Virus record (IMG/VR): IMGVR_UViG_2671180921_000016
DNA length: 10,202 bases
Strand: one strand, 5' to 3'
From: a virus
Taxonomy: Duplodnaviria > Heunggongvirae > Uroviricota > Caudoviricetes
In this document: positions 6,492 through 10,202 of the stretch, one piece after another
Layout: the number at the start of each line of letters is the position of its first letter
How positions within the stretch are numbered: the first letter of the stretch is position 1
The notes under the pieces: generated by a model
What the model saw: only the letters and a program-made list of their open reading frames with translations
What the model was told of the DNA's origin: nothing
The model's database searches: none
Position numbers and translations under genes: made by a program

Positions 6492-6632
6492 GCCTGTTAT
6501 CCGGCAATAGTGGCGCTTCGCTACATGGTTGATATAATCCCCCTGCACAGATTCATTTTTTGCGCAGTAGGTTAATTGTTCGCAAGGGCGCTCCGGCAAC
6601 GAGGCGCTTTTTGTTATGTGCATCGCTCCCCC

Positions 6633-6842
6633 TTACACTGTCTGCGTTCTGCGAGTGGATGCAAGATAAGCATCGAGATCAGTGCGCATATACAGCACTT
6701 TGCGCCCCAGCTTATGGAAAGGGATTTTTACCTTGCCAGTACAGGCCCAGTTCGCCAGCGTTTGATTGTTAACGCCAAGGTAGGCAGCAGCTTCAGCACG
6801 TGTAAGGCGGTCAGTTGATAAATCAGATTTCTTTAAATTCAT
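6633..6842 (-). CDS. Excisionase-family / AlpA-like HTH DNA-binding protein (putative Xis or island regulator)
   Basis: LTRAEAAAYLGVNNQTLANWACTGKVKIPFHKLGRKVLYMRTDLDAYLA matches the excisionase-type HTH pattern (LT.eEAA.yLGVs..TvyrW...G.lp..k.Grk..y...dLdayL). ATG 6842 has a GGTGA Shine-Dalgarno; the track start at 6851 is GTG. Confidence 0.75.
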   Translation of the reverse strand: MNLKKSDLSTDRLTRAEAAAYLGVNNQTLANWACTGKVKIPFHKLGRKVLYMRTDLDAYLASTRRTQTV

Positions 6843-6912
6843 ATCTATCACCGTGTACTTCTAAGTAACAACGGTGATAAATATCAATCAATGGGTATTT
6901 TGTTTTTAGCCC

Positions 6913-7000
6913 AATAGCCAGTTGCTGTGGGGAGGTTACCAGTTATTTAGCCTTAATAGCCAGCTATTAAGATACACTAGCCAGCTATTGGGGGTGAACA
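6913..7000. repeat. Direct repeats TAGCCAGCTATT at 6957-6968 and 6978-6989, degenerate copy AATAGCCAGTT at 6913-6923, and an iteron-like GGTGAACA at 6993-7000, in the upstream region of the Xis/AlpA-like gene
   Basis: Read directly from the sequence. The repeats span the stop codon of the 241-aa gene and the promoter region of the 6633-6842 gene. Confidence 0.5.
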
Positions 7001-7710
7001 AGTTCAAACGAAGAATATTTATCAGGTCTTGGTGGTTGTGCTCCTGATTCTTTAATCCATTTATCCAGAGTGTTTTTACTTACTTTCCCATGATAGTAAA
7101 CAGAAAGCTCGTTCAATAAACCTGTTTTACTGGCTTTAGGGTACTTTTCCCATGTTAGTTTAATTACGTGCATAACTTCATTGTAATAATGATTTCTTGG
7201 TTTGCACGCTTTTTCTTTCTGTGATAAGGATAAAGCATCTTTTATTTTTTTATCTTTTTCATGGTTCGATATAATTTCTTCAAAAAAGTCATTAAGCAAT
7301 AACTCAACACCAACCCTAGTAAGTTTGTCTGCGTGATTACGCATTCCGACATGGTACAATGCAACTGCTGAATTTAAAGTATCGACAACCTGACAAGATA
7401 GTTTACTATCAAATATTAAAAAACCACATGAATCCATTCTTATAGCTAATTCAATAGGATATTGCTCGATTTCTCTTAATTCTAAACCATAACACAAAAG
7501 AAATTCTCTTGTTGGATACTTTGATTTATAAAAATAATCTCTTATATCATCAATCAAGCGTTTTATAGCCTCTATGGTGGAGTTTTTCGGGGATAAAGAT
7601 ACAGGAACGTTTAAAACTGAAGAGTCTCGCCCACCAGTAATTAAATCATTCATAACCGAATAAATAATATATTGTTTTACCGATATATTGTTATCACCCA
7701 TATATGTCAT
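6985..7710 (-). CDS. Hypothetical 241-aa protein encoded by a strongly AT-rich gene whose start overlaps the integrase stop; no recognisable domain
   Basis: Track ORF. The start (ATG 7710 or 7701) overlaps the integrase TGA at 7694-7696. Base composition is visibly AT-rich (roughly one-third GC) against about 50% in flanking genes. Lys/Asn/Ile/Tyr-rich protein. Confidence 0.7.
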   Translation of the reverse strand: MTYMGDNNISVKQYIIYSVMNDLITGGRDSSVLNVPVSLSPKNSTIEAIKRLIDDIRDYFYKSKYPTREFLLCYGLELREIEQYPIELAIRMDSCGFLIFDSKLSCQVVDTLNSAVALYHVGMRNHADKLTRVGVELLLNDFFEEIISNHEKDKKIKDALSLSQKEKACKPRNHYYNEVMHVIKLTWEKYPKASKTGLLNELSVYYHGKVSKNTLDKWIKESGAQPPRPDKYSSFELVHPQ

Positions 7711-9124
7711 TCTTTTCTTGTACTATAGCAAATAGTAAACGACGTTTTTCATCATCACTCATGCCCTCCAGTGCGGAAAGTAATTGCGCATCGATAGATT
7801 TTTTACTCTCCACCAGCCCAGCATGTTCCAGAATTGCCCGTTCTATCCGTGATGCTGGCTCCAGCAGTTCATCAGCACCGAAATGTAAATACCCCTGCGT
7901 TACGTCGGCACTTCGCATAGTGCGGTGATTCATCAGGCGCTTGAGGATGTAATTACCCACGCCCACCAGCTCAGCAATCGTTCCGAACGTCCGGCGTGCG
8001 TCGTGCCACTTAAACGGGACAGGGAAGAGCATTTCATCGTTCGCCTCAGGAATGGTAGCCGCGCTTATCCGGTCTATGATGTGCCGTGTCTCCTGAATCA
8101 CTCCCTTCACGCCAGGAAACACCAGCACATCATCAGCAGCTTTGTTTTTTAGCCTGCGAAGAAACATTTTCCGCAACGTATCAGTGATCGGCAGTTCAAG
8201 CGGATCCCCGTTTTTCGTGGTGTCTATCCAGAAAAAGCGACCGCCCATATTCACGCGATCCCACGTAAGGCCAAAAACTTCTGATTTCCTCAGTCCGGTA
8301 AACAGTGCCATTTCCACGGCATCACATACCGTAACAGCTATATCATCCCTTTCCTGTTCGCCCTGGTCGCGCACAGCAGCTACAGCAGCTACAGCAGCAA
8401 ACCAGCGGGGAAAATCATGCAGGCGGATACGTTCCGTTTTTCTTACTGTTCCGTGCCACTGGCGCTTGGTGCTCAGTACCAGAGTCGGCGGATCCGGTAA
8501 AAGAGTATTACCCGCATCATCACGGTAATGATCATGCGCAAACCGACACACAGCACGTAGCGCACGCGCCCATAAATCGGCCTGTGCCTTGCTTCCTGTA
8601 CCAACCCCAGCCCGTAACGTGGTTTTATCAGCACCGAACCATACAGCCCCATCAGTGATGGCCTTATGCCGTTGTTCCACCCGTTCGCGGGAAATACTGG
8701 CGAGGGAATGGGCCATCCAGTCACCGGAATAATTCTGTAATATGCTGCGGTACTGTTTTTCTGTGGAGGGTTTCAGGCGGTGGCCACGATTTTTTACGTA
8801 GGCGTCAATCGCCTCACTCAGCGTTATCATGGCCTTGTTGTTAGTGCGCTTTGCTATGTTCGGATTTATCCCCGTTGTGGCGACTTCGCCAAGGAGTTCC
8901 ATAGCTTTAGCCCTGGCATTATCCACGCTCAGATCAGGAAAACGCCCCAGCGTTGCACGAATAAATTTTCCGTTACGCTTACGGGAAATGCAGAAACTTT
9001 TCACACCAGACGAACCTACACGGACACGCAGCCCGTTAACCTCCGTATCACCATATTCGACCTGTCCATGTTCCGGCGTTGGCAGTTCTGCAATTTTTAC
9101 TTTAGAGAATCTGAATAATTTCAC
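7694..9124 (-). CDS. int: Tyrosine site-specific integrase, P4-like family (476 aa, GTG start)
   Basis: N-terminal arm-binding-type domain (GLRVRVGSSGVKSFCISRKRNGKFIRATLGRFP). Catalytic signature residues: R in FTGLRKSEVFGLTWDRV, HxxR in WHDARRTFGT, R/H/Y in LMNHRTMRSADVTQGYLH. Adjacent to the tRNA remnant. Confidence 0.92.
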   Translation of the reverse strand: MKLFRFSKVKIAELPTPEHGQVEYGDTEVNGLRVRVGSSGVKSFCISRKRNGKFIRATLGRFPDLSVDNARAKAMELLGEVATTGINPNIAKRTNNKAMITLSEAIDAYVKNRGHRLKPSTEKQYRSILQNYSGDWMAHSLASISRERVEQRHKAITDGAVWFGADKTTLRAGVGTGSKAQADLWARALRAVCRFAHDHYRDDAGNTLLPDPPTLVLSTKRQWHGTVRKTERIRLHDFPRWFAAVAAVAAVRDQGEQERDDIAVTVCDAVEMALFTGLRKSEVFGLTWDRVNMGGRFFWIDTTKNGDPLELPITDTLRKMFLRRLKNKAADDVLVFPGVKGVIQETRHIIDRISAATIPEANDEMLFPVPFKWHDARRTFGTIAELVGVGNYILKRLMNHRTMRSADVTQGYLHFGADELLEPASRIERAILEHAGLVESKKSIDAQLLSALEGMSDDEKRRLLFAIVQEKNDIYG

Positions 9125-9138
9125 TCATACACCCCACC

Positions 9139-9300
9139 AAGCGATCTGGTATCCTGGAAAATCGCTTGTTCTGCTCCAGGATACCTATAGGATACCGTAA
9201 AGAAGTATTTTGGGGTATATACAGGTATTTATACAGTAGTTTTAAAAAATGCTAAGGTATTGAAAAGTATCGCTAAGTATCTGTAAGTAAAGGGTTATCA
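9139..9300. promoter_or_regulatory. Integrase promoter / arm-type site region: dyads AAGCGAT...ATCGCTT and GGTATCCTGG (9148-9157) / CCAGGATACC (9178-9187), second AGGATACC at 9190-9197, TATACAG x2 (about 9218-9236), CTAAG(G)TAT repeats (9251-9280)
   Basis: Repeats read directly. Located between the integrase start and the tRNA-derived core, where arm-type recombinase binding sites and the int promoter are expected. Confidence 0.45.
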
Positions 9301-9304
9301 ACCA

Positions 9305-9350
9305 ACTCATAATCGCTTGGTCGCTGGTTCAAGTCCAGCAGGGGCCACCA
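9305..9350 (+). repeat. tRNA 3'-end remnant (anticodon loop CUCAUAA with anticodon CAU, T-arm GCTGG-TTCAAGT-CCAGC, acceptor 3' strand AGGGGCC, then ACCA): attR-type island junction, most consistent with tRNA-Ile2 (ileX)
   Basis: The sequence ends in GGGGCCACCA with a canonical T-arm, but the complementary 5' acceptor strand (GGCCCCT) and D-arm are absent upstream, so this is a partial copy. Identity to ileX is from memory, supported by the adjacent yqjH-like gene (order mug-ileX-yqjH in E. coli K-12). Confidence 0.75.
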
Positions 9351-9360
9351 GATATAGCAA

Positions 9361-9395
9361 AGGCTGACGAGAAATCGTCAGCCTTTTTCTTTTTA
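9361..9395 (+). terminator. Rho-independent terminator (AGGCTGACG-AGAAAT-CGTCAGCCT then TTTTCTTTTT) downstream of the tRNA remnant, between it and the yqjH-like gene
   Basis: 9-bp perfect stem followed by a T-rich tract. Likely the native tRNA terminator. Confidence 0.7.
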
Positions 9396-9403
9396 TATAT
9401 CAG

Positions 9404-10168
9404 TTACTTTGCGTGCCAGTAAGCCGCTGCACGTACCCGCTGTGGGTCATACTGTTCCGCTTCAAAGCGGCGGCTTAAATTCTTAACGACTTTACCTTCG
9501 CCGGTTATCCAGATGAAGTAATCATCGGCAGGGATTTGCATCTGCGCCAGACGCGCATCTACCGCCTGCTCATCATGTGCCAGCCATTCGATATTAAAAC
9601 CATCAAGGTGCGCGAGATAATCCTGACAGGCGTTATCCCGCACGCTAACCAGCGCACTAACTTGCGGTTTAACGGCAAGTTTGCTCAACGTTTCCAGGCG
9701 GCGGCGCAGTGCGGGCATTCCGGATTCATCGCAGACATACAGCTGATACGCGTAATCTTCCGGCACCACCAGCGAACCGCGCGGACCTGCCACCGTAAGT
9801 TTATCGCCCGGTTGCGCCTGCATCGCCCAGCCGCTGGCGACCCCACCGTCGTGAATAAAGAAATCGATCGCCAGTTCATGGCGTAGTTCGTCATACAGCG
9901 GCGTATAGTCACGCGACGGTGGGCGTGGTCCTTCCGGCCAGACGATGCCCTCTTCCGTTACCGTTGGCGGCACAAAGTGAGCGTCAGGTTGAGGAAAGAA
10001 GAGTTTGCTGTGATCGTCAAAGCCGCGCGATGTAAAACCGTCCAGCGCCTCGCCGCCGAGGACAATGCGCTGAAAACCGGCGCTGATGCGCTCAACGCGT
10101 AACACAGTCAGTTCACGGAAGCGCAGATCATTGCGAACGCGCTGCGGGTAGCGGGGGGAGTTATTCAT
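9404..10168 (-). CDS. yqjH: Siderophore-interacting protein family NADPH-dependent ferric-chelate reductase (YqjH/NfeF-like), host gene
   Basis: Protein from MNNSPRYPQRVRNDLRFRELTVLRVERISAGFQRIVLGGEALDGF... matches my recollection of E. coli YqjH and the expected position next to ileX. Start taken as ATG 10168; the track ORF begins at an upstream TTG. Confidence 0.88.
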   Translation of the reverse strand: MNNSPRYPQRVRNDLRFRELTVLRVERISAGFQRIVLGGEALDGFTSRGFDDHSKLFFPQPDAHFVPPTVTEEGIVWPEGPRPPSRDYTPLYDELRHELAIDFFIHDGGVASGWAMQAQPGDKLTVAGPRGSLVVPEDYAYQLYVCDESGMPALRRRLETLSKLAVKPQVSALVSVRDNACQDYLAHLDGFNIEWLAHDEQAVDARLAQMQIPADDYFIWITGEGKVVKNLSRRFEAEQYDPQRVRAAAYWHAK

Positions 10169-10202
10169 TGTTATCGCCGGTGATGCTGCCAACTTACTGA
10201 TT

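What the first reader, a model, noticed from the sequence alone, without database searches (positions are those of the whole stretch)
9139..9395. Island boundary: tRNA 3'-end remnant with arm-type repeats, implying the intact tRNA lies at the far (left) end outside the window
The 46-nt tRNA 3' segment lacks its 5' half, so it is the displaced att copy and not a functional gene. The integrase 5' end and multiple short repeats and dyads (GGTATCCTGG / CCAGGATACC, TATACAG, CTAAGTAT) lie just inside it. The island therefore extends beyond the left edge of the window (over 9.3 kb), with the functional tRNA expected at the other junction. If this is ileX, the only partner gene in K-12 is ileY, and this tRNA reads AUA codons, so its integrity at the other junction matters.
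Basis: partly seen in the sequence, partly recalled or inferred. Interest (0 to 1): 0.45.

Follow-up and report, generated by a model that had tools for sequence, protein, structure and literature searches.

The report
ileX island junction with integrase sites
This is the ordinary right-hand junction of a roughly 16.6-kb phage-satellite island inserted in the E. coli tRNA gene ileX: the displaced 3' piece of the tRNA next to the integrase gene and its probable binding repeats. In near-identical islands the working tRNA is rebuilt at the other end.

Summary
Window 9305-9350 is an exact copy of the last 46 nt (A31-A76) of E. coli ileX (tRNA-Ile2, anticodon CAU), with no 5' half. ARAGORN and Rfam find no tRNA anywhere in the window.

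- 5,424 of 5,426 complete E. coli genomes match the window only from 9305 rightwards. That is the empty-site boundary.
- An island 99.98% identical to the window's (L047), and E. coli EC12, have the layout mug, intact tRNA(CAU), island of 16.6-17.2 kb, integrase, 46-nt remnant, nfeF.
- The same layout holds for this integrase family in 25 of 27 loci from other Enterobacterales.

The intact tRNA is a hybrid. Its T arm and terminator come from the island. attL and attR are identical only over 9305-9323, so strand exchange lies in the anticodon-loop to variable-loop segment.

The GGATACC repeats are well-supported arm-type sites. A doublet occurs on both arms of every element where both ends are visible, and its sequence variants co-vary between the arms. 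Of the other repeats, one TATACAG copy is conserved, and CTAAGTAT occurs exactly only once.

This is a known kind of feature, of low interest. The far end lies outside the window, so it is inferred for this particular genome.

The parts
7694..9124 (-). Tyrosine integrase gene (476 aa, GTG start). It has an N-terminal arm-DNA-binding domain and a C-terminal catalytic domain. The residues assigned by me to the catalytic set (R279, H374, R377, H400, Y412) are present.
   Evidence: Pfam PF13356 (residues 9-94) and PF00589 (269-406). PHROG integrase. Those residues are invariant in alignment A2. The family is about 471-482 aa across Enterobacterales.
9125..9304 (.). Island-side arm of the attachment site (the P arm of attP), lying between the integrase start codon and the core. 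It also contains the integrase leader and promoter region.
   Evidence: The homology with empty-site genomes ends at 9305. The conserved blocks were found in a 21-sequence alignment of 20 family loci plus the window.
9136..9168 (.). Conserved composite element just upstream of the integrase ribosome-binding site. ACCAAGCGAT (9136-9145) is an inverted copy of the core segment ATCGCTTGGT. GGTATCC (9148-9154) is an inverted arm-type motif. AATCGCTTG (9160-9168) is a direct copy of the core's right half.
   Evidence: all three ATCGCTTG copies in the window are these two plus the core; of 26 sequences, 21 have a direct copy, 20 of them at a fixed 144-146 nt from the core; 17 have the inverted copy; 19 have GGTATCC. 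Changes in the two arms are not compensatory.
9178..9196 (+). Arm-type site doublet AGGATACC-TAT-AGGATACC.
   Evidence: The same doublet lies about 45-50 nt beyond the intact tRNA at the far end in all 11 full-length loci with a far-end tRNA that were scanned (L002, L047 and 9 loci from other Enterobacterales). It is almost absent elsewhere in 618 kb. Its variants co-vary between the two arms.
9204..9237 (+). Three RGTAT motifs spaced 10 bp apart (9204, 9214, 9224), followed by the conserved ATTTATACAGT block.
   Evidence: One search gives the positions. One search shows that AGTATTTT, AGAGTATTT and TTATTTATACAGT are conserved. The far arm repeats AGTAT-N5-GGTAT after its doublet.
9256..9290 (+). 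Four A(A/G)GTA motifs spaced 10 bp apart (9256, 9266, 9276, 9286). These are candidate sites for an accessory protein (excisionase or a bending protein) or further Int sites.
   Evidence: TGAAAAnTAT, ATAAGTAT and TAGGTAA are semi-conserved.
9305..9323 (+). Core: the 19 nt identical at both junctions (tRNA positions A31-G49), which must contain the strand-exchange site. The block shared across the whole family is 9306-9322, CTCATAATCGCTTGGTC.
   Evidence: Alignment of K-12 attB, EC12 attL and the window's attR. Family comparison.
9305..9350 (+). Displaced host 3' fragment of ileX (tRNA-Ile2, CAU), positions 31-76. It is not a functional gene.
9359..9395 (+). The native ileX terminator (12-bp stem, 4-nt loop, then a T run), left stranded with the fragment.
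   Evidence: It is identical in K-12 downstream of intact ileX.
9404..10168 (-). nfeF (yqjH), the first chromosomal gene outside the island.
   Evidence: Annotation of the matching loci.
6633..6851 (-). Small helix-turn-helix protein of the excisionase/AlpA kind, a candidate directionality factor and island activator.
   Evidence: Pfam HTH_17. PHROG excisionase families. NCBIfam TIGR01764 'excise', 38.6 bits against a cut-off of 28.8.

Best explanation
Window 9125-9395 is the integrase-proximal junction (attR, by the lambda convention with the tRNA read left to right) of a phage-satellite island of about 16.6 kb, of the PICI type with a P4-type replicon. The island integrated site-specifically into ileX, the gene for the AUA-reading tRNA-Ile2.

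How it works:
- The island's tyrosine integrase recombined a circular attP with the tRNA gene. Exchange occurred inside the 17-19-nt segment that runs from the anticodon loop into the variable loop (9305-9323).
- The island carries its own copy of the tRNA's last 45 nt and its own terminator. An intact hybrid tRNA gene is therefore rebuilt at the far junction, predicted about 7.3 kb left of window position 1, next to mug.
- The host's original 3' piece and terminator are left behind here as a dead fragment beside nfeF.
- The GGATACC motifs, a direct doublet on each arm plus one inverted copy near the integrase start, are the arm-type sites for the integrase's N-terminal domain.
- The RGTAT runs spaced 10 bp apart probably bind Int or accessory proteins.
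- The small HTH protein at 6633-6851 is the likely excisionase.

Shown: the fragment, the exact boundary, the architecture in near-identical and distant relatives, and the conservation and co-variation of the motifs.
Inferred: protein binding, the exact cleavage positions, present-day mobility, and the state of the far end in this genome.
For: - Fragment and boundary.
- Far-end intact tRNA in near-identical islands. EC12: tRNA at L002 7407-7482 (Rfam tRNA 72 bits) and the remnant at 24708-24753. L047: tRNA at 18739-18814 and the remnant near 2160; its island differs from the window's by 1 SNP plus a 9-nt indel.
- Population: 87 complete E. coli genomes carry this arm. 60 carry the matching attL, lying under an annotated tRNA-Ile. 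Coordinate differences between the two junctions give island sizes of about 9-20 kb.
- Family-wide layout: in 25 of 27 loci from other Enterobacterales the ileX 3' piece lies about 180 nt upstream of, and divergent from, the integrase start. None of these has a tRNA next to the integrase. Nine have an intact tRNA(CAU) 8.7-11 kb beyond the integrase gene, in the orientation of the remnant.
- Hybrid tRNA: the T arm carries a compensatory C50U/G64A change, and the island supplies its own terminator.
- Arm sites: Pfam Arm-DNA-bind_3 domain in Int; the doublet at both arms and almost nowhere else; variants co-vary between arms; clustering in the window.
- Island type: integrase, excisionase-like HTH, DUF4222, P4-family primase, SSB, ProQ/FinO, PerC; TerS-like ORFs in the left part. 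This matches the gene set described for Gram-negative PICIs (PMC11773190).
- General principle: a regenerated target plus a displaced fragment mark the ends of an island (PMC4383910).
- ileX is a reported integrative-element site in E. coli (PMC7067040).
Against: - The far junction of this genome is outside the window and was not retrieved. The 100%-identical draft contig (L036) could be read only 2.3 kb past the window.
- An IS1 end at 10179 shows IS activity in this strain, so rearrangement of the unseen part cannot be excluded.
- No excised (attP) junction was found in viral or metagenome contigs, although the family is present there in the integrated state.
- The window's integrase has a 3-residue duplication not seen in relatives. 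Its effect is unknown.
- Binding of Int to the motifs is untested.
- The left core half-site of attP is not conserved.
Confidence: 0.9

Rival explanations
1. The junction is real, but in this genome the island is a fixed, decayed remnant. Its left part or the far junction has been deleted or rearranged, for example by IS1, so no intact ileX is rebuilt and the cell relies on ileY alone.
For: - An IS1 end abuts nfeF at 10179.
- Draft contigs of the same lineage (L031-L034) break about 13-14 kb from the integrase start.
- One E. coli genome has its two junctions 436 kb apart on opposite strands.
Against: - The island part of the window is almost identical to the complete L047 island, which has both junctions.
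- The next 2.3 kb to the left in the 100%-identical contig L036 is also identical to L047.
- The integrase ORF is intact.
Confidence: 0.07
2. Some or all of the short repeats are not integrase arm sites. They would instead be operators for other proteins (the AlpA/Xis-like HTH protein, IHF or Fis) or parts of the integrase promoter and leader. In particular, the CAAGCGAT...ATCGCTTG dyad could be an RNA hairpin in the integrase leader.
For: - The dyad and one GGTATCC motif lie 12-60 nt upstream of the integrase start codon.
- The A(A/G)GTA runs spaced 10 bp apart resemble tandem excisionase sites (inference).
- No binding data exist.
Against: - The GGATACC doublet is also present on the far arm, away from any integrase promoter. 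Its variants co-vary between the arms of each element, as expected for sites read by the element's own Int.
- Substitutions in the two dyad arms are not compensatory (L013, L015, L020). This argues against a selected hairpin.
- No match to the IHF consensus was found in 9125-9330.
Confidence: 0.2
3. The 46-nt piece is a tRNA pseudogene made by an unrelated deletion or duplication, and the integrase lies beside it by coincidence.
For: None beyond the absence of the 5' half.
Against: - The breakpoint is identical in 87 E. coli genomes and in 25 loci from other genera.
- It always lies about 180 nt from this integrase family's start codon.
- The complementary junction is found at the far end.
Confidence: 0.01

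Closest known systems
Genomic islands integrated in tRNA or tmRNA genes, as mapped by Islander (PMC4383910)
   Same: A tyrosine integrase splits the target gene. The island restores the gene. The regenerated gene and the displaced 3' fragment mark the two ends. Empty-site alleles exist.
   Different: Nothing essential. Here the integrase lies next to the displaced fragment and diverges from it. In the more familiar layout it lies next to the intact tRNA (the comparison rests on my own knowledge).
Gram-negative phage-inducible chromosomal islands (PICIs), such as EcCICFT073, EcCIEDL933 and EcCIMP1 (PMC11773190)
   Same: The gene set: integrase, AlpA/Xis-like HTH, primase, PerC-family regulator, and small-terminase-like ORFs. 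No capsid, tail or lysis genes were found in the ORFs examined, though the whole island was not scanned. Size is 10-20 kb. The modules recur with different integrases at other sites.
   Different: The integration site is ileX, with a 17-19-nt core. EcCIMP1 sits in tRNA-Thr with a 10-bp repeat. Helper phage and inducibility are unknown. The integrase is only about 30% identical to any integrase in phage records.
Satellite phage P4 and P4-like elements (PMC8628076)
   Same: An integrase with an Arm-DNA-bind_3 (DUF4102) domain that targets a tRNA gene. A P4-family primase/helicase (TIGR01613-type, D5_N). TGTTCACC octamers clustered beside the primase gene; that these are the P4 alpha-protein iterons rests on my memory.
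   Different: No hits to sid, psu or delta in the ORFs scanned. P4 itself uses leuX (from memory). The packaging module looks TerS-like, not P4-like.
Bacteriophage lambda attP (a heterobivalent integrase with arm-type and core-type sites)
   Same: Motifs repeated on both arms, distinct from the core sequence, together with an integrase that has a separate N-terminal arm-binding domain. An excisionase-type HTH protein is encoded nearby.
   Different: The motif, spacing and target are unrelated to lambda's. A copy of the core's right half is conserved inside the P arm about 150 bp from the true core. Lambda does not have this, to my knowledge.

Membership tests
tRNA-integrated genomic island (Islander criteria) | A displaced 3' fragment of a tRNA gene at one end | tested here: met
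   9305-9350 is an exact copy of ileX positions 31-76, and no tRNA is called.
tRNA-integrated genomic island (Islander criteria) | An intact, regenerated tRNA gene at the other end, in the same orientation and sharing the core | not testable with these tools
   It lies outside the window. It is met in L047 (1 SNP and a 9-nt indel from the window's island), in EC12 and in 9 loci from other Enterobacterales. In 60 E. coli genomes the matching attL junction lies under an annotated tRNA-Ile.
tRNA-integrated genomic island (Islander criteria) | A tyrosine integrase gene inside the island | tested here: met
   7694-9124(-), PF13356 plus PF00589.
tRNA-integrated genomic island (Islander criteria) | Uninterrupted target gene in related genomes, with the same breakpoint | tested here: met
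   5,424 of 5,426 E. coli genomes match from 9305 rightwards. K-12 has the order mug, tRNA-Ile, nfeF.
Heterobivalent (lambda-type) integrase att site | An N-terminal arm-binding domain in the integrase | tested here: met
   Pfam Arm-DNA-bind_3, residues 9-94, E=2.8e-13.
Heterobivalent (lambda-type) integrase att site | An arm-type motif repeated on both arms and distinct from the core | tested here: met
   The GGATACC doublet is present at both arms in 11 of 11 full-length loci with a far-end tRNA that were scanned. There are 3 stray hits in 618 kb, against about 0.6 expected from shuffles. Variants co-vary between arms.
Heterobivalent (lambda-type) integrase att site | Inverted core-type sites flanking a 6-8-bp overlap | tested here: inconclusive
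   In attB the anticodon stem provides symmetry around CTCATAA. In attP the left side is not conserved across the family. Cleavage sites are unknown.
Heterobivalent (lambda-type) integrase att site | Demonstrated binding of Int to arm and core sites | not testable with these tools
   This needs EMSA or footprinting.
Gram-negative PICI | Integrase, AlpA-type regulator and primase/replication genes in one orientation, size about 10-20 kb, no structural or lysis genes | tested here: met
   The island is 16.6 kb in L047. No capsid, tail or lysis hits were found in the ORFs scanned.
Gram-negative PICI | A packaging-redirection module (TerS-like or Rpp) | tested here: inconclusive
   Two adjacent ORFs in L047, outside the window, hit phrog_57 'terminase small subunit' at E=3.5e-7 and 1.6e-14. 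Their function is untested.
Gram-negative PICI | Induction, excision and packaging by a helper phage | not testable with these tools
   No attP junction was found in public contigs.
P4-like satellite | The capsid-size and late-control genes sid, psu and delta | tested here: not met
   No Pfam or PHROG hit of these kinds in the window ORFs or in the left part of L047. Several ORFs there have no family at all.
P4-like satellite | An alpha-type primase/helicase with its iterons | tested here: met
   D5_N, DUF5906, Pox_D5 and TIGR01613 (95.1 bits, below the 108.7 cut-off). Nine exact TGTTCACC copies lie in 2771-2991. The link between this octamer and P4 iterons is from memory.

The most novel reading that the evidence does not exclude
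The P arm of this integrase family contains a conserved second copy of the core's right half-site (AATCGCTTG, extended to AATCGCTTGGTCGCT in some members), held 144-146 nt from the true core. In most members it is paired with an inverted copy, and the two flank an inverted arm-type motif directly over the integrase ribosome-binding site. This could be a combined core-type and arm-type Int operator that lets Int repress its own gene. Alternatively it could be a 'pseudo-core' that takes part in assembling the recombination complex. I am not aware of such an arrangement for lambda-type att sites.
Probability: 0.3. Interest if true: 0.4.

Novelty: new member of a known kind. Interest (0 to 1): 0.17.

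Why it matters
The main value is for annotation.
- It fixes the right boundary of the island at 9304/9305.
- It identifies the 46-nt piece as a non-functional fragment that should not be called a tRNA gene.
- It predicts where and in what form the functional AUA-decoding tRNA sits: a hybrid with an island-supplied T arm and terminator.
- It gives a testable site map (core, arm-type doublets, accessory repeats) for an integrase family that is widespread in Enterobacterales. I found no experimental study of this family in the papers I searched.

Carriers of the island express an altered ileX allele, which is harmless if the compensatory T-arm change keeps the fold. Nothing here challenges current understanding.

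Tried and rejected
- Tracing the source genome to see the far end. Exact-protein look-ups found the lineage: L036 is 100% identical and its contig ends where the window's IS1 begins; L031-L034 are 99.96-99.99% identical. The retrievable flank stopped 2.3 kb left of the window. Look-ups with the 57-aa and PerC proteins mostly returned other satellites that share those modules, but they did yield the complete sister island L047.
- Searching for an excised or packaged form through the predicted attP junction. There were no hits for the exact junction in viral contigs. There were none for a degenerate pattern in viral or metagenome contigs. My first degenerate pattern did not match the window's own lineage, which I found by testing it on a reconstructed attP, so I repeated the scans. 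As a positive control, the P arm plus core occurs in 28 IMG/VR contigs.
- Whole-island nucleotide search against phage records: only a 78% match to the primase of a 16.5-kb 'induced prophage'.
- A sigma-70 promoter scan of 8900-9500 found nothing. The integrase promoter remains unplaced.
- An IHF consensus scan of the arm found nothing.
- RNA-hairpin reading of the CAAGCGAT/ATCGCTTG dyad: rejected, because the substitutions in relatives are not compensatory.
- The Rfam microRNA hits are chance matches to a hairpin of iterons and to the terminator.
- Use of ileY by this family: the two E. coli genomes I spot-checked were both at ileX/nfeF. The question was not pursued further.
- A literature search for the TGTTCACC iteron returned only unrelated primer sequences.

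Full report
**What is in the sequence**

Window 9305-9350 (+) reads ACTCATAATCGCTTGGTCGCTGGTTCAAGTCCAGCAGGGGCCACCA. It occurs once in the window and never in shuffles. ARAGORN calls no tRNA or tmRNA anywhere in the window, and Rfam at E<=1 gives no tRNA match. Aligned with the K-12 locus, the 46 nt are identical to positions 31-76 of the tRNA-Ile gene that lies between mug and nfeF. They are followed by the same terminator hairpin (9359-9386) and by nfeF on the minus strand. The 30 nt to the left of 9305 do not resemble the tRNA 5' half. As RNA, the stretch forms only a T arm and the terminator. The tRNA has a CAU anticodon, which ARAGORN reports as 'Met' in relatives. By established knowledge it is tRNA-Ile2, read as AUA after lysidine modification, and it is encoded in K-12 by ileX and ileY. 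The fragment is therefore real and is not a gene.

**The boundary**

A megablast of 8900-10202 against 5,426 complete E. coli genomes matched 5,424 of them. In all but 75, the match starts at query position 406, which is window 9305. Everything to the left is accessory DNA. Everything from 9305 rightwards is the conserved chromosome. In 87 genomes the 205 nt to the left of 9305 are present at 94% identity or more.

**The other end**

E. coli EC12 matches the whole window at 99.4%. Its order is mug, tRNA-Ile (L002 7407-7482, +), about 17.2 kb of island, integrase, the 46-nt fragment (24708-24753), then nfeF. The tRNA there scores 72 bits on Rfam's tRNA model.

Exact-protein look-ups then found two closer relatives.
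- The window's own lineage: L036 is 100% identical over 1-10174, and its contig ends just short of the window's IS1 end at 10179.
- A complete sister island, L047. Over 1-9304 it differs from the window by one SNP and a 9-nt in-frame indel in the integrase gene. The nfeF flank differs at 22 positions.

In L047 the intact tRNA(CAU) lies at 18739-18814 next to mug, and the remnant lies about 180 nt before the integrase start. This gives an island of about 16.6 kb. It places the intact tRNA about 7.3 kb left of window position 1. The 2.3 kb of L036 beyond the window's left edge are identical to L047. In sixty complete E. coli genomes the matching far junction lies under an annotated tRNA-Ile. Pairing those coordinates gives island lengths of about 9-20 kb. 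The far end of this particular genome was not seen.

**Only part of the 46 nt is the repeated core**

The rebuilt tRNA is a hybrid. From position 50 onwards it reads GTTGGTTCAAACCCAAC, where the host has GCTGGTTCAAGTCCAGC. Positions 50 and 64 change together and keep the T-stem pair, and two T-loop bases also differ. The tRNA is followed by the island's own terminator hairpin. The two junctions are identical only over ACTCATAATCGCTTGGTCG (9305-9323). Across the family the shared block narrows to CTCATAATCGCTTGGTC (9306-9322). Strand exchange must lie in this anticodon-loop to variable-loop segment. This corresponds to the anticodon-loop sublocation described for tRNA-targeting integrases (discussed in bioRxiv 10.1101/2020.11.02.365908). 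The exact cleavage positions are inferred, not shown.

**The layout is a property of the integrase family**

The 476-aa ORF at 7694-9124 (-) has an N-terminal Arm-DNA-bind_3 domain and a C-terminal phage-integrase domain. Homologues of 471-482 aa occur throughout Enterobacterales. I scanned one genome per species with an alignment of 14 members, which gave 27 loci.
- In 25 of them the ileX 3' piece lies about 180 nt upstream of the integrase start and diverges from it.
- None has a tRNA beside the integrase.
- Nine have an intact tRNA(CAU) 8.7-11 kb beyond the integrase gene, in the orientation of the remnant.

**The repeats**

An alignment of the integrase-proximal arm from 20 family loci plus the window shows sharply conserved blocks separated by variable sequence.

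1. The doublet AGGATACC-TAT-AGGATACC (window 9178-9196).
   - It lies beside the integrase in 24 of 27 family loci.
   - It recurs 45-50 nt beyond the intact tRNA in all 11 full-length loci with a far-end tRNA that I scanned.
   - There are only three other hits in 618 kb, against about 0.6 per shuffle.
   - Where the motif differs (GGGGATAC in L007, TGGGATAC in L018 and L024, GGGGATAC/GGGGATTCC in L023), it differs in the same way on both arms of that element.
   - Together with the arm-binding domain, this is good comparative evidence for arm-type sites.
2. An inverted GGTATCC (9148-9154).
3. RGTAT motifs at 9204, 9214 and 9224, followed by the conserved ATTTATACAGT. The far arm also has AGTAT-N5-GGTAT after its doublet.
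4. Four A(A/G)GTA motifs spaced 10 bp apart at 9256-9290. These are semi-conserved.
5. AATCGCTTG (9160-9168), a direct copy of the core's right half.
   - Of 26 sequences, 21 have a direct copy, 20 of them held 144-146 nt from the core.
   - It is usually paired with an inverted copy, ACCAAGCGAT (9136-9145).
   - Changes in the two copies are not compensatory, which argues against a hairpin and for protein recognition.
   - Its role is unknown. Int autoregulation is my inference.

CTAAGTAT is not an exact repeat.

**What the island is**

The window encodes, all on the minus strand:
- the integrase;
- a 241-aa protein with no family;
- an excisionase/AlpA-type HTH protein (TIGR01764, above its cut-off);
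- a DUF4222 protein;
- a P4-family primase/helicase;
- SSB;
- a ProQ/FinO protein;
- a PerC-family protein.

In L047 the unseen left part adds two small-terminase-like ORFs and a KilA-N fragment. No capsid, tail, lysis, sid, psu or delta hits were found in the ORFs scanned. This is the gene set described for Gram-negative PICIs (PMC11773190), combined with a P4-type replicon. The same left-hand modules occur with three other integrases at other chromosomal sites. The integrase is only about 30% identical to any integrase in deposited phage genomes. ileX has been reported before as an integrative-element site in E. coli (PMC7067040, PMC7545054).

**Mobility**

Several observations point to recent site-specific movement.
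- Only 87 of 5,426 complete genomes carry the island.
- The breakpoint is identical in every carrier.
- A near-identical island sits in chromosomal backgrounds whose nfeF flank differs at 22 positions.

I found no excised junction in viral or metagenome contigs, although the family is present there in integrated form. Current excision is therefore untested.

**Verdict**

The feature is a textbook island junction (PMC4383910) for an integrase family that is common, though I found no experimental study of it. Interest is low. The conserved copy of the core inside the arm is the only mildly unusual detail.

Noticed in passing
window 10179-10202: The last 24 nt are the end of a multicopy element, with a median of 10 copies per E. 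coli genome, on chromosomes and plasmids. On a plasmid the matching stretch lies about 30 nt before an 'IS1 family transposase' CDS. So an IS1 is inserted 10 nt upstream of the nfeF start codon (10168). This probably separates nfeF from its normal promoter and regulatory region. E. coli relatives lack this insertion, and the 100%-identical draft contig breaks here.
   Followed up: partly
window 2771-2991: Nine exact copies of the octamer TGTTCACC, in both orientations, are packed just 3' of the primase/helicase gene. The window has 11 exact copies in all; with up to one mismatch there are 23 matches, a count that no shuffle reaches. From memory, this is the iteron bound by the P4 alpha protein, so this is probably the island's replication origin. 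Rfam's 'MIR395' hit at 2823-2930 is this hairpin of iterons.
   Followed up: partly
window 8373-8381: The integrase gene has an in-frame 9-nt tandem duplication (an extra Ala-Val-Ala) compared with the sister island L047. This makes it 476 aa, against 473 aa in L047 and EC12. It lies in a variable linker, and its effect is unknown.
   Followed up: no
window 1-9304 versus 9305-10178, compared with L047: The island part differs from L047 by 1 SNP plus the indel above. The 870-nt chromosomal flank differs at 22 sites. The same island is therefore present in different host backgrounds, which points to recent horizontal spread.
   Followed up: partly
L002 7455-7471; L004, L010 and L014 remnants: The island-borne T arm (GTTGG...AAACCCAAC) matches the host-type ileX of Kluyvera and Kosakonia. 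E. coli carriers therefore express a 'foreign' T-arm allele of tRNA-Ile2. This may record an earlier host of the att module.
   Followed up: no
L037-L054 (loci found through the window's 57-aa and PerC proteins): The same SSB/ProQ/PerC/57-aa module recurs in islands of similar size that carry three unrelated integrases (409-413 aa) at other chromosomal sites. It is combined with alternative replication proteins (AAA_25 or DUF927). This shows modular shuffling among E. coli satellites.
   Followed up: no
window 5439-6623 (-): The 394-aa ORF is probably over-called. Only its last 86 residues or so match a phage repressor/Icd-like family. EC12 has a different segment about 400 bp longer here, with several small ORFs.
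   Followed up: no
window 6985-7710 (-): A 241-aa ORF overlaps the integrase stop codon and is conserved beside this integrase in relatives. It has no Pfam, PHROG or NCBIfam match.
   Followed up: no
E. coli CFSAN064036 (NZ_CP028166.1) 2007269 and 2443695: The integrase-side and tRNA-side junctions are 436 kb apart and on opposite strands. This suggests a large inversion with one end in the island.
   Followed up: no
L001 (E. coli 90-9280) and L009 9727: At ileX, strain 90-9280 has about 20.6 kb holding two different integrases and capsid-protease fusion genes, which suggests tandem or nested satellites. L009 has an extra degenerate GGATAT doublet beyond the remnant, possibly a trace of another element.
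   Followed up: no
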